Part shown: in pieces, positions 2,118-4,188 of the stretch
Layout of the letters: each line of letters starts with the position of its first letter
How positions within the stretch are numbered: the first letter of the stretch is position 1
DNA from: a virus
Lineage: Duplodnaviria; Heunggongvirae; Uroviricota; Caudoviricetes
DNA length: 4,200 nt
Virus record (IMG/VR): IMGVR_UViG_2541047928_000001
Location: 1-4,200 of that record
Direction: 5' to 3' (one strand)
Program-made: the position numbers and the translations under genes
Notes under the pieces: generated by a model
Told to the model about the DNA's origin: nothing
Databases searched by the model: none
What the model saw: only the letters and a program-made list of their open reading frames with translations

Positions 2118-2705
2118 TCAGAAAGCAGGGTAATCGTTCTGGCTGTAACCATAATCATCTGCATGATTCTGGCTTACGTTTTTAGAGCGATTGTCTTTAT
2201 CTTTGAGGCTGGCAACCATGTCGGCGATAGTTTCTGGTTGCTTGCCTTCTGCCTTTTCTTTAAGGGTTTGACCTGTTTGTGCAATAAACGGGATGCGTAT
2301 TTCCATCTGGTAGCTGTCTGCGCCAGTCTTTTTGTTTGTGGTTAATACTTTCTGGAGCACTAACCCGATTTTCTTTCCATGAAATTCAGGTGCAACAAAT
2401 TTACTGGCGGAAACCATATGCTGCGTTAATTGTCCAATCCCGGCACACCCCATCATGGCGTGAACGACATTTGCGCCAAATTTGTTTTCCGTTCCGTCAT
2501 TTTTCTGAACACAAACGCTAAGATACTGGATTTTACGTCCGTCGTCGGATTCTCCAGAAAACTCAATAAATTTGGCTCCTTTTTCTGATTTCTTTAGTTC
2601 TGCTTCAGTAATGGTAATGATATGGGCGCCAGTTTCGTTAATAAAACCACCTTGCCCTGCGGTCAGTGCTGCTTCTTCGTTATAAGTAAAAATCACGTTG
2701 CTCAT
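2118..2705 (-). CDS. Putative ssDNA-binding partner of the adjacent ATPase (195 aa); possibly T7 gp2.5-like rather than a canonical SSB
   Basis: Track ORF. Its ATG overlaps the ATPase stop (ATGA), indicating translational coupling. The C-terminus ...ADDYGYSQNDYPAF is an acidic/aromatic tail ending in Phe, reminiscent of SSB and gp2.5 C-terminal tips. The N-terminus MSNVIFT loosely resembles T7 gp2.5 (MAKKIFT). There is no canonical SSB OB-fold signature. The functional call is an inference. Confidence 0.55.
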   Translation of the reverse strand: MSNVIFTYNEEAALTAGQGGFINETGAHIITITEAELKKSEKGAKFIEFSGESDDGRKIQYLSVCVQKNDGTENKFGANVVHAMMGCAGIGQLTQHMVSASKFVAPEFHGKKIGLVLQKVLTTNKKTGADSYQMEIRIPFIAQTGQTLKEKAEGKQPETIADMVASLKDKDNRSKNVSQNHADDYGYSQNDYPAF

Positions 2706-3382
2706 GCGGCGTTTTCCTTAATTTGATGAACATTATTGATGCCGTAGTAATCACAAACAGTGGCATCGACGAAAGAGAGATCGTTATCAATCTCATTGGA
2801 ATCAAACATTCCTATTGGGGATTTAACAGTGTCTGCACCGTTGTTTTTCGTGGTGAAAAAGAACTGGTCATCGCGGGTAAGGGTGCGAAGAACTATAGTA
2901 AACATGCCTTCGACAGTGATTTTCTCGTCCAGCATTTTGCCGATAGTCTTCATTTTCACACGCCCCATAGGGGTTTCTTCGGTGTGTGCGAGAAAATAGA
3001 CTCTCAGGTCATCAGGTGCATCCTGTGCAGCCTTAATCACCTCCCATGCGTGGCGGCCTATCTCAGTGAATTTATCAAACGATTTTTCTTCTGAGCGGCG
3101 CATAAACTCATTGCTCATCACATACTGGAAGTCATCAACAATAACGATTCTTTTCCCGTATTCGTGAGCACGCTTAATTACGGCAACTATTACGTCCCAT
3201 TTGTCAGTGGTAACTACGGTTCCTTTTTTTGCTCTGGCATCCCATGCCAGCCAGTCTTTTGATTTAAATGGAAGCGGCTTGCCTATTGGTTTTATAAGTA
3301 TTGCTTCCTCTGGATTGATATTTCTCATGCTGGTTGATTTTCCGGTGCCAGATTCACCGAGTATTAATGTCGCAGTTCCCAT
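2702..3382 (-). CDS. P-loop ATPase, probably Sak4-like (AAA_24 / RecA-like core) phage recombination protein (226 aa)
   Basis: Track ORF. Walker A GESGTGKST at residues 9-17 and a Walker B-like hhhhDD motif (RIVIVDD). Size and N-terminal P-loop fit the small RecA-like Sak4 family. It sits where lambdoid phages carry their recombination module, directly after kil. SD GAGG with a 6-nt spacer. Confidence 0.7.
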   Translation of the reverse strand: MGTATLILGESGTGKSTSMRNINPEEAILIKPIGKPLPFKSKDWLAWDARAKKGTVVTTDKWDVIVAVIKRAHEYGKRIVIVDDFQYVMSNEFMRRSEEKSFDKFTEIGRHAWEVIKAAQDAPDDLRVYFLAHTEETPMGRVKMKTIGKMLDEKITVEGMFTIVLRTLTRDDQFFFTTKNNGADTVKSPIGMFDSNEIDNDLSFVDATVCDYYGINNVHQIKENAA

Positions 3383-3390
3383 AATTTGCC

Positions 3391-3579
3391 TCAGAATGGT
3401 AATTCGGATGGGGAGGAAAGAAACTCACGCTCATTCATGCGCTCTCTTTGTGCCTGCCATAAGCAAAGTTGTTTCTTTGATTTATCTCCCGCTTTACGCC
3501 AGTAACGAGCCTCAGCAATGTGATATTCTCTTTTTAATCGACTTAACTCTGGAGTTTTCGCCAGTTCTACCGGAATCAT
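3391..3579 (-). CDS. Hypothetical small basic protein (62 aa)
   Basis: Track ORF 3391..3591 trimmed to the ATG at 3579-3577, which has SD GGAGGT (5-nt spacer) and overlaps the kil stop (ATGA). Lys/Arg-rich. No recognisable family. Confidence 0.5.
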   Translation of the reverse strand: MIPVELAKTPELSRLKREYHIAEARYWRKAGDKSKKQLCLWQAQRERMNEREFLSSPSELPF

Positions 3580-3689
3580 TTTGACCTCCATTTTCTGTAG
3601 GCTTCGACGGCCTCACGAAACATCTTTTCATCGCCAATAAAAGTGGCGATAGTGAATTTAGTCTGGATAGCCATAAGTGTTTGATCCAT
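3576..3689 (-). CDS. kil: Kil-like host cell-division inhibitor (37 aa as called)
   Basis: Internal ATG at 3689-3687 of track ORF 3576..3815, with SD AGGAG (8-nt spacer). The product MDQTLMAIQTKFTIATFIGDEKMFREAVEAYRKWRSK matches my recollection of the lambda Kil N-terminus. It starts 32 nt inside the cIII 3' end, the same overlap I recall for lambda. The upstream part of the track ORF is an artefact of the overlapping cIII frame. Confidence 0.7.
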   Translation of the reverse strand: MDQTLMAIQTKFTIATFIGDEKMFREAVEAYRKWRSK

Positions 3690-3822
3690 TTTTTGGGACT
3701 CCTGGCTGATTAAGTATGTCGATAAGGCGTTTCCATCCGTCACGTAATTTACGGGTGATTCGTTCAAGTAAAGATTCGGAAGGGCAGCCAGCAACAGGCC
3801 ACCCTGCAATGGCATATTGCAT
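3658..3822 (-). CDS. cIII: CIII, FtsH/HflB protease inhibitor that stabilises CII (54 aa)
   Basis: Not in the ORF track (54 aa). Hand translation from ATG 3822-3820 to TAA 3660-3658 gives MQYAIAGWPVAGCPSESLLERITRKLRDGWKRLIDILNQPGVPKNGSNTYGYPD, which matches lambda CIII as I recall it. SD AAGGAG at 3834-3829 with a 6-nt spacer. Confidence 0.85.
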   Translation of the reverse strand: MQYAIAGWPVAGCPSESLLERITRKLRDGWKRLIDILNQPGVPKNGSNTYGYPD

Positions 3823-3840: not shown

Positions 3841-3871
3841 ACATAACGAAAAACGCCTCGAGTGAAGCGTT
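3841..3871 (-). terminator. Candidate intrinsic terminator or regulatory hairpin between the 97-aa ORF and cIII
   Basis: Minus-strand RNA: AACGCUUC, loop ACUC, GAGGCGUU (8 bp including one G-U pair), followed by UUUCGUU. It lies just upstream of the cIII SD. Likely read through under antitermination if this is a pL-type operon. Confidence 0.35.
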
Positions 3872-3894: not shown

Positions 3895-4188
3895 TCAGGC
3901 GGCTTTGATAGTCATATCATCTGAATCAAATATTCCTGATGTATCGATATCGGTAATTCTTATTCCTTCGCTACCATCCATTGGAGGCCATCCTTCCTGA
4001 CCATTTCCATCATTCCAGTCGAACTCACACACAACACCATATGCATTTAAGTCGCTTGAAATTGCTATAAGCAGAGCATGTTGCGCCAGCATGATTAATA
4101 CAGCATTTAATACAGAGCCGTGTTTATTGAGTCGGTATTCAGAGTCTGACCAGAAATTATTAATCTGGTGAAGTTTTTCCTCTGTCAT
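3895..4188 (-). CDS. Hypothetical acidic protein (97 aa)
   Basis: Track ORF. Its ATG at 4188-4186 overlaps the TAA of an upstream gene that ends at 4188-4190 (TAATG). The composition is strongly acidic (about 16 D/E against 5 K/R), with a D-rich C-terminal region. No recognisable family. Confidence 0.6.
   Translation of the reverse strand: MTEEKLHQINNFWSDSEYRLNKHGSVLNAVLIMLAQHALLIAISSDLNAYGVVCEFDWNDGNGQEGWPPMDGSEGIRITDIDTSGIFDSDDMTIKAA

What the first reader, a model, noticed from the sequence alone, without database searches (positions are those of the whole stretch)
3391..3579. Small basic protein in the gam position, translationally coupled to kil
The 62-aa Lys/Arg-rich ORF starts with an ATGA overlap on the kil stop and has a strong SD, so it is very likely expressed. 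It sits where lambda encodes Gam (the RecBCD inhibitor), immediately upstream of the recombination ATPase. It may be a nuclease inhibitor or an accessory factor of the annealing module, but has no recognisable family.
Basis: inference. Interest (0 to 1): 0.45.

Follow-up and report, generated by a model that had tools for sequence, protein, structure and literature searches.

The report
Small SSB-tailed partner of phage recombinases
This is a real, conserved 62-residue phage gene (HkaM of phage HK620, function unknown) that always sits directly in front of the phage's DNA-annealing recombinase and ends in the same Pro-Phe tip that single-strand-binding proteins use to dock partners, so it is probably a recombination helper rather than a Gam-type nuclease inhibitor.

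Summary
A 62-codon minus-strand ORF (3391-3579) starts in an ATGA overlap with the kil stop, has a GGAGG 5 nt upstream, and is basic (pI 9.6).

It is not family-less. It is HK620 HkaM (98% identical; PHROG 1723). The PHROG label "recombinase" is a positional legacy, and the only paper that discusses the protein calls it an orphan of unknown function.

New here:
- Homologues, including remote ones, always lie 7-11 nt upstream of a single-strand annealing protein (SSAP) gene. That gene can be Sak4/AAA_24, ERF or Rad52-type. kil is often absent.
- In front of near-identical Erf or Sak4 genes, the slot holds either an HkaM-family gene or P22-type Arf, so the two are interchangeable cassettes.
- The predicted fold is a two-helix hairpin with a flexible tail. 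The tail ends in Pro-Phe in 39 of 40 distinct family sequences. In these modules only SSBs share that ending.

Best reading: an Arf-like accessory factor whose tip docks into an SSB-tail pocket, on the SSAP or on a host SSB client. A Gam-like role is unlikely because there is no homology, the protein is basic, and Abc2 is already present. HkaM was dispensable for oligonucleotide recombineering. The mechanism is inferred, not shown.

The parts
3391..3579 (-). hkaM-family CDS (62 aa plus stop), the finding itself
   Evidence: PHROG 1723, E 1.6e-33. 98% identical to HK620 HkaM. Under purifying selection.
3585..3589 (-). Shine-Dalgarno GGAGG for hkaM, 5 nt before the ATG, lying inside the kil 3' end
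   Evidence: Read directly from the sequence.
3576..3579 (-). ATGA overlap of the kil stop and the hkaM start
   Evidence: Read directly from the sequence.
3433..3552 (-). Residues 10-49: predicted basic two-helix hairpin (H10-30, H33-49). It holds the invariant residues S13, A24, R28, G31 and E46.
   Evidence: AlphaFold2 block pLDDT 83-94. Per-site conservation in 40 distinct family sequences.
3394..3432 (-). Residues 50-62: flexible tail EREFLSSPSELPF. The linker varies and gains or loses residues. The FL motif is conserved, and the terminal Pro-Phe is invariant (SSB-tip-like).
   Evidence: pLDDT about 50. P61 in 40/40 and F62 in 39/40 distinct sequences. The P and F codons vary synonymously. 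Only SSBs share this ending in these loci.
3389..3392 (-). GAGG Shine-Dalgarno of sak4, overlapping the hkaM stop codon (TGAGGCAAATTATG)
   Evidence: Sequence. The same stop-plus-SD junction is found in front of Erf, Sak4 and Rad52-type genes.
2702..3382 (-). Sak4-type SSAP (HK620 hkaL homologue), the gene downstream of hkaM
   Evidence: PF13479 AAA_24 and PHROG 2872, E 1.2e-107.
2118..2705 (-). SSB-2 (HK620 hkaK homologue). Its C-terminus NDYPAF (2121-2138) is the second PF-type tip in the module.
   Evidence: PHROG 743. In HK620 the last six residues, NDYPPF, are required to stimulate Sak4 (PMC5928155).
1798..2094 (-). abc2, the module's anti-RecBCD gene
   Evidence: PF11043, E 1.5e-35.
3576..3689 (-). 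kil (37 aa), the gene upstream of hkaM
   Evidence: PF06301. HK620 annotation.

Best explanation
The ORF is a genuine PL-operon gene of the HkaM family. It is translated by coupling to kil upstream, and it hands ribosomes on to the SSAP gene downstream.

The protein is a basic two-helix hairpin with a flexible tail that ends in an invariant Pro-Phe-COOH. It fills a conserved 'accessory slot' immediately before the phage SSAP. P22-type Arf fills the same slot in sister phages.

Most likely it is an accessory factor of SSAP-mediated recombination. The hairpin would bind DNA or SSB-coated ssDNA. The PF tip would insert into a pocket that normally accepts the SSB C-terminal tip. That pocket could be on the SSAP itself or on a host SSB-client enzyme such as ExoI, RecJ, RecQ, PriA or RecO. 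The effect would be to bias who gets access to the recombination intermediates.

Shown: gene reality, synteny, slot interchangeability, fold class and tip conservation.
Inferred: DNA binding, tip docking and the target.

Sub-probabilities:
- real expressed gene: about 0.97
- SSAP-linked, Arf-like accessory role: about 0.7
- SSB-tip-like docking: about 0.4
For: 1. Synteny.
- The gene directly precedes Sak4+SSB-2+Abc2 or Erf+SSB+Abc2 in 80+ loci, with the HkaM protein 98-100% identical in both settings.
- In Citrobacter, Trabulsiella and Phytobacter, and in metagenomic remote homologues, it is still 7-11 nt upstream of an ERF, AAA_24 or Rad52_Rad22 gene, without an adjacent kil.

2. Slot interchangeability.
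- Upstream of 80 near-identical Erf genes: 68 HkaM family, 11 Arf, 1 other.
- Upstream of 80 Sak4 genes: 73 HkaM family, the rest Arf-type or another acidic small protein.
- P22 Arf aids Erf recombination (PMC12315714, PMC9836394).

3. The tip.
- P61 is invariant and F62 is present in 39 of 40 distinct sequences, next to a variable, indel-prone linker.
- Remote homologues at E about 1e-4 still end in ...FLGxxPF.
- The codons vary synonymously.
- Of 350 ORFs of at least 50 aa in 13 loci, the 18 that end in PF are 10 HkaM, 7 SSBs and 1 neighbouring small ORF.

4. Precedent.
- The last six residues of HK620 SSB (NDYPPF) are needed for Sak4 to bind SSB-coated ssDNA (PMC5928155).
- Redbeta binding to SSB requires SSB Phe177 (PMC6393309).

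5. Fold. AlphaFold2 gives a confident hairpin and a disordered tail.
Against: - In HK620, sak4+ssb alone gave the same oligonucleotide recombineering as the whole module including hkaM. HkaM is therefore dispensable for ssDNA annealing in that assay (PMC5928155).
- The acidic residues typical of SSB tips are missing in one clade (GPCPF, GPAPF).
- The conserved FLG motif has no SSB counterpart.
- There is no binding data and no complex model.
- Arf is acidic and unrelated in sequence, so sharing a slot does not prove sharing a mechanism.
- A single tail would bind weakly unless the hairpin oligomerises, which is untested.
Confidence: 0.45

Rival explanations
1. Gam-like inhibitor of host nuclease. 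The protein binds RecBCD (or SbcCD) and protects linear phage DNA, as lambda Gam does from the same map position.
For: It has the same position as lambda gam, between kil and the SSAP. It is small and early-expressed.
Against: - No similarity to Gam (hhalign probability 0.15%) and no Pfam hit.
- The family is basic, pI 9.0-10.4. Known RecBCD-blocking DNA mimics are acidic (established knowledge, and PMC9836394).
- The module, and most related modules, already encode Abc2.
Confidence: 0.07
2. Anti-defence shield or decoy. The PF-tailed protein masks the phage SSAP or SSB, or the intermediates they make, from host immune systems that sense phage recombinases and SSBs.
For: It is tightly linked to SSAP and SSB genes of several families. 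It is interchangeable with unrelated small proteins in the same slot, a pattern typical of arms-race cassettes. Several defence systems are reported to target phage recombinases (abstract of PMC11846896, listed).
Against: No match in PADLOC. No literature link was found. Sequence evolution is conservative, with strong purifying selection, rather than diversifying.
Confidence: 0.12
3. Small DNA-binding regulator, or a Kil/cIII-associated factor. The basic hairpin would bind DNA, or would modulate Kil toxicity, independently of recombination.
For: It is basic and helical. It has an ATGA overlap with kil. kil and hkaM form a shared mosaic block of about 400 bp between Sak4-type and Erf-type phages.
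Against: kil is not adjacent in the Citrobacter, Phytobacter, Trabulsiella and metagenomic homologues, while the SSAP is always adjacent. No HTH or other DNA-binding domain was detected.
Confidence: 0.1
4. A mere translational-coupling leader. Only the act of translating the ORF matters, to deliver ribosomes to the SSAP start, and the peptide itself has no function.
For: The stop codon overlaps the SSAP SD in every locus examined.
Against: pN is far below pS. Residues spread over the whole protein are invariant. The terminal Pro and Phe are kept through synonymous codon changes.
Confidence: 0.03

Closest known systems
HkaM of phage HK620 (NP_112046; PHROG 1723; also ST64T orf-66 and ES18 gp50)
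   Same: 98% identical protein with the same neighbours, kil upstream and sak4 downstream. The Salmonella phage homologues are 66-69% identical.
   Different: Nothing substantive; this is that gene. Its function is unknown in the literature (PMC5928155). The database label 'recombinase' comes from its position, after the original 'arf' annotation.
Arf (accessory recombination function) of Salmonella phage P22
   Same: A small protein encoded immediately upstream of the SSAP and coupled to it. It occupies the very same slot in front of near-identical Erf or Sak4 genes. Arf aids recombination but is not essential, which parallels HkaM being dispensable for oligonucleotide recombineering.
   Different: No sequence similarity (hhalign probability 0.2%). 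Arf is 47 aa and acidic (pI 4.1) and ends in GYYS. HkaM is 62 aa and basic (pI 9.6) and ends in PF.
Gam of phage lambda (RecBCD inhibitor)
   Same: The map position between kil and the SSAP gene. Early PL-operon expression.
   Different: No homology. Gam is 138 aa. HkaM is basic and therefore an unlikely DNA mimic. Anti-RecBCD activity in this module is provided by Abc2.
C-terminal tip of bacterial and phage SSBs (E. coli DDDIPF; HK620 SSB NDYPPF)
   Same: A flexible tail that ends in a hydrophobic or acidic residue followed by Pro-Phe-COOH. In these loci only SSBs and HkaM end this way. The tip residues are the ones known to matter for SSB partner binding (PMC5928155, PMC6393309).
   Different: HkaM has no OB fold and no SSB domain. 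Acidic residues before the tip are not conserved in all clades. A conserved FLG precedes the tip. Binding to any SSB-tip pocket is untested.

Membership tests
HkaM family (PHROG 1723) | Full-length profile match | tested here: met
   PHROG 1723: E 1.6e-33, residues 2-59 against profile positions 1-58 of 58. 98% identity to HK620 hkaM.
HkaM family (PHROG 1723) | Located immediately upstream of an SSAP gene | tested here: met
   There are 8 nt between the stop and the sak4 ATG. The same arrangement holds across the family.
Lambda Gam (host nuclease inhibitor) | Sequence or profile homology to Gam | tested here: not met
   No Pfam hit at E<=1. hhalign against lambda Gam gives probability 0.15%.
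Lambda Gam (host nuclease inhibitor) | Acidic, DNA-mimicking surface | tested here: not met
   Net charge +4, pI 9.6. Family pI range 9.0-10.4.
Lambda Gam (host nuclease inhibitor) | Binds and inhibits RecBCD | not testable with these tools
   Needs biochemistry or genetics.
P22 Arf | Sequence homology to Arf | tested here: not met
   hhalign probability 0.2%. PMC5928155 reaches the same conclusion.
P22 Arf | Small gene in the slot directly 5' of the SSAP | tested here: met
   Arf and HkaM alternate in front of near-identical Erf or Sak4 genes.
P22 Arf | Stimulates SSAP-dependent recombination or phage growth | not testable with these tools
   The only data are negative: no added effect on oligonucleotide recombineering in HK620 module constructs.
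SSB proteins (OB-fold with C-terminal tip) | OB-fold ssDNA-binding domain | tested here: not met
   No PF00436 hit. AlphaFold2 predicts a two-helix hairpin.
SSB proteins (OB-fold with C-terminal tip) | Flexible tail ending in Pro-Phe-COOH | tested here: met
   ...SELPF in the window. PF ends 39 of 40 distinct family sequences. The tail has pLDDT about 50.
SSB proteins (OB-fold with C-terminal tip) | Run of acidic residues before the tip | tested here: inconclusive
   One or two D/E residues in clade 1 (SELPF, DDLPF, DDGKIPF). None in clade 2 (GPCPF, GPAPF).
Recombinase / SSAP (the label attached to PHROG 1723) | Any recognised SSAP or recombinase domain | tested here: not met
   No Pfam or NCBIfam family. 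No PDB sequence or fold match. At 62 aa it is too small.

The most novel reading that the evidence does not exclude
HkaM-family proteins are natural, virus-encoded mimics of the SSB C-terminal tip carried on a non-OB mini-scaffold. By plugging the SSB-tip pockets of host genome-maintenance enzymes, or of the phage SSAP, they would rewire the SSB interaction hub during infection. Together with Arf they would define a generic 'slot' of interchangeable modulators placed before every type of phage SSAP.
Probability: 0.3. Interest if true: 0.75.

Novelty: new variant of a known kind. Interest (0 to 1): 0.5.

Why it matters
Phage SSAP modules are the basis of recombineering, and their dependence on the SSB C-terminal tail limits portability between hosts. 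A small conserved partner that carries its own SSB-like tip would be a new, easily testable component of these modules. It is found in front of Sak4, Erf and Rad52-type annealases and in many Stx-converting prophages. It could explain what the long-enigmatic P22 Arf slot is for. If the tip targets host SSB clients, it would be the first natural protein mimic of the SSB tail. If nothing comes of the tip, the gene remains an ordinary conserved phage ORF of unknown function, already catalogued as HkaM.

Tried and rejected
- Pfam, NCBIfam and PADLOC scans of the 62-aa protein: no hits.
- PDB sequence search with the family profile: only noise, E >= 0.34.
- Foldseek of the AlphaFold2 model against PDB and BFVD: nothing at E <= 0.001, only generic helical hairpins.
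- hhalign against P22 Arf, lambda Gam and the PF-ending ORF upstream in L008: no similarity.
- Exhaustive HMM search of 1.84 billion representatives: only 21 hits, all small phage or prophage proteins or decay fusions, with no link to a characterised family.
- Beta-clamp-binding motif (QLxLF type): considered and rejected by eye, because no conserved Gln or Leu spacing is present in the tails.
- Literature searches for hkaM, its protein accessions and natural SSB-Ct mimics found only PMC5928155 for this protein and no described natural mimic.
- The promoter and terminator scan found no promoter or terminator inside the gene. The weak terminator 'tL2D' that HK620 annotates inside hkaM was not reproduced.

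Full report
**1. What is in the window**

All genes of interest are on the minus strand and form a lambdoid early-left (PL) operon segment:
- a DUF2528 gene (3895-4188)
- cIII (3658-3822)
- kil (3576-3689)
- the 62-codon target ORF (3391-3579)
- a Sak4-type ATPase / single-strand annealing protein (SSAP) (2702-3382; PF13479; PHROG 2872, E 1.2e-107)
- an SSB-2 / HkaK-type single-strand-binding protein (2118-2705; PHROG 743)
- abc2, the anti-RecBCD gene (1798-2094; PF11043, E 1.5e-35)
- small ORFs, then Ead/Ea22-like and DUF551 genes

Over 3300-3700 the DNA is 97.5-99% identical to phages JEP4, HK620 and HK629, and 96.8% identical to many Stx-converting phages.

**2.

The ORF translates to MIPVELAKTPELSRLKREYHIAEARYWRKAGDKSKKQLCLWQAQRERMNEREFLSSPSELPF.
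- Its ATG (3577-3579) overlaps the kil TGA (3576-3578) as ATGA.
- GGAGG (3585-3589) lies 5 nt upstream.
- The alternative in-frame ATG at 3591 has no Shine-Dalgarno sequence (SD). Homologues that lack kil start at MIPV.
- K+R make up 13 of 62 residues, net charge is +4 and pI is 9.6.

The gene therefore appears coupled on both sides.

The ORF is a real gene. Against ten homologues, synonymous sites are saturated (pS 0.63-1.0) while pN is 0.19-0.54. It is present in 229 of 5426 complete E. coli genomes, where RefSeq calls it 'hypothetical protein'.

**3. Identity**

It is HK620 hkaM (98% identical). It matches PHROG 1723 end to end (E 1.6e-33).

The PHROG label 'recombinase' has no basis in sequence. 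HK620 genes were first named arf/erf/abc1/abc2 by position relative to P22. Hutinet et al. 2018 (PMC5928155) state that the protein is an orphan with no homology to P22 Arf, renamed it HkaM, and list it as of unknown function.

They also report recombineering results. The whole module (sak4, ssb, abc2, hkaM) gave 210-fold oligonucleotide recombineering. sak4+ssb alone 'restored completely' that level. HkaM is therefore not needed for ssDNA annealing in that assay.

No other paper in the library mentions the protein. A 2025 survey of lambdoid Rec modules does not treat it (PMC12315714).

**4. Family and synteny**

The family is small.
- The word-indexed search gave 19 clusters.
- An exhaustive profile search of 1.84 billion representatives gave 21 hits. 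All are 54-73-aa proteins or decay fusions.

In 88 loci, an HkaM protein 98-100% identical to the window's lies directly before either Sak4+SSB-2+Abc2 or Erf+SSB+Abc2.

More distant members keep the SSAP neighbour but not kil:
- Citrobacter (L006): an ERF-family gene follows.
- Trabulsiella (L007): an Erf gene follows.
- Phytobacter (L008): a 290-aa AAA_24 Sak4-like gene follows.
- Metagenomic remote homologues: ERF (L094, L097, L100, L101) or a Rad52_Rad22 gene (L090-L093) follows.

The gap is always 7-11 nt, with the junction CCN TTY TGA/TAA GG(T)GA...ATG. kil is adjacent only in the E. coli and Salmonella lambdoids. The conserved partner is therefore the SSAP, whatever its fold family.

**5. 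The slot**

I fetched 80 viral contigs that carry an Erf at least 91% identical to ST64T Erf. The gene immediately upstream was:

| Upstream gene | Count |
|---|---|
| HkaM clade 1 (one copy with the tip mutated, PF to PC) | 23 |
| Divergent HkaM clade (MSLATTVKES...YFLGPCPF) | 45 |
| P22-type Arf | 11 |
| Other | 1 |

For 80 contigs with HK620-type Sak4 (85-100% identical), the upstream gene was HkaM clade 1 in 70 and the divergent clade in 3. In the rest it was a P22-type Arf or another acidic small protein.

HkaM and Arf are thus mutually exclusive, interchangeable cassettes in one slot, independent of SSAP type. P22 Arf is reported to aid, without being essential for, Erf recombination; its mechanism is unknown (PMC12315714, PMC9836394). 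This is the best evidence that HkaM has an Arf-like accessory role.

The two proteins are nonetheless chemically opposite. Arf is 47 aa with pI 4.1. HkaM family members have pI 9.0-10.4. They are unrelated in sequence.

Because identical HkaM proteins serve with Sak4 (RecA-like) and with Erf (Rad52-like), a co-evolved interface between the hairpin and the SSAP is unlikely. The target is more probably generic: DNA, SSB-coated ssDNA, a host factor, or a feature shared by SSAPs.

**6. Structure and the C-terminal tip**

AlphaFold2 with a small alignment predicts two helices (10-30 and 33-49; block pLDDT 83-94) and a low-confidence tail (about 50). There is no significant fold or sequence match in PDB or BFVD.

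Across 40 distinct family sequences:
- Invariant positions are M1, S13, A24, R28, G31, E46 and P61.
- F62 is present in 39 of 40.
- F53, L54 and N49 are conserved at 0.93 or higher.
- Linker positions 55-60 vary and carry indels.

Remote homologues still end in ...FLG-x-x-P-F (GEPPF, GPCPF, GPAPF, GETPF, GNCPF, DKDMPF). The Pro and Phe codons vary synonymously (CCA/CCG, TTC/TTT), so selection acts on the amino acids, not on the overlapping SD.

As a background check, I took 350 ORFs of at least 50 aa, in six frames, from 13 loci. Eighteen end in PF: 10 HkaM proteins, 7 SSBs, and one small ORF next to hkaM in L008. The 7 SSBs include the HK620 SSB (NDYPPF), bacterial-type SSBs (DDEIPF, DSDIPF), and a 126-aa protein without a Pfam hit that ends in FDDSIPF.

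A terminal Pro-Phe-COOH on a flexible tail is the hallmark of the SSB C-terminal tip. In HK620 the last six SSB residues are required for Sak4 to bind SSB-coated ssDNA and for stimulation of annealing. Redbeta binding to SSB is lost in the SSB F177A variant (PMC6393309).

**7. Mechanism proposed**

HkaM is an accessory factor of the SSAP module. It pairs a basic hairpin (nucleic-acid or SSB-ssDNA binding, inferred from charge) with an SSB-type tip (docking, inferred from conservation and analogy). The tip could occupy the SSB-tip site on the SSAP. Alternatively it could compete with SSB for host clients such as ExoI, RecJ, RecQ, PriA or RecO. Either way it would bias who processes phage recombination intermediates. 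I cannot discriminate between these targets.

Weaknesses:
- HkaM was dispensable in oligonucleotide recombineering.
- Acidic residues before the tip are missing in one clade.
- The conserved FLG motif has no SSB counterpart.
- There is no interaction evidence of any kind.

**8. Rivals**

- A Gam-like RecBCD inhibitor is unlikely. There is no homology, the protein is basic, and Abc2 is present.
- A Kil-linked role is unlikely because kil adjacency is not conserved.
- A pure coupling leader is contradicted by purifying selection.
- An anti-defence shield for SSAP or SSB remains possible. The cassette-like slot fits it, but nothing else supports it.

**9. Verdict**

The gene itself is already catalogued, with unknown function. 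What is new is the family-wide SSAP linkage across three SSAP families, the interchangeability with Arf, and the invariant SSB-like PF tip. Interest is moderate. The hypothesis is directly testable and bears on the unexplained Arf slot and on SSB-hub biology, but it rests on comparative inference only.

Noticed in passing
L183-L261 (Sak4 loci), for example the ORF ending 1 nt into sak4; P22-type Arf (…EEFIALISPEIEEEVEQQINL…WQEFAGYYS) also occurs directly upstream of HK620-type Sak4. So does a second acidic small protein (MIDPDMYFIEMMQAILEPV…). Arf is therefore not Erf-specific, contrary to its usual description as an Erf cofactor.
   Followed up: partly
L008 3301-3489 (Phytobacter ursingii prophage): A second 62-aa ORF lies immediately upstream of the HkaM homologue and also ends in …EFTNCPF, followed by an SD and ATG. 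hhalign detects no homology to HkaM. It may be a divergent tandem paralogue or a convergent PF-tailed protein.
   Followed up: partly
L100 4287-4667: A 126-aa protein downstream of Erf has no Pfam hit but ends in …NSNQFDDSIPF. This looks like an unrecognised SSB.
   Followed up: no
L006 2488-3492, L008 2254-3285, L007 263-1234, L090 462-1400: Where kil is absent, the gene upstream of hkaM is a 312-343-aa protein with a long charged, coiled-coil-like Ala/Glu/Lys/Arg-rich region. The two copies tested (L006, L090) have no Pfam hit. It may be another conserved member of these recombination modules.
   Followed up: no
P0009 (87 aa) and P0019 (109 aa): Natural fusion ORFs. In P0009, HkaM residues 1-39 are joined to the C-terminal part of Abc2. 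In P0019, HkaM residues 1-30 are joined to Sak4 from residue 5. These are probably deletion derivatives in decaying prophages.
   Followed up: no
window 3576-3815 (-): A 79-aa ORF extends kil upstream across cIII in another frame and matches PHROG 2461 ('Kil', 89-position profile) at E 1.8e-50. The Pfam Kil domain covers only residues 44-74, and HK620 annotates a 37-aa kil. PHROG 2461 probably contains over-extended kil calls.
   Followed up: partly
window 3852-3871 (-): A terminator-like hairpin (AACGCTTCACTCGAGGCGTT followed by TTTCGTT) lies between the DUF2528 gene and cIII. It is near where HK620 annotates the tL2A/tL2B terminators. The weak terminator tL2D that HK620 annotates inside hkaM was not detected in the window.
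   Followed up: no
window 3658-3822 (-) versus L001 4383-4523: cIII is intact here (54 aa). The HK620 record notes a shortened cIII caused by an internal stop.
   Followed up: no
window 2121-2138 (-): The SSB-2 C-terminal tip here is NDYPAF. HK620 has NDYPPF, the hexapeptide shown to be essential for Sak4 stimulation. This is a natural variant at the penultimate-but-one position.
   Followed up: no
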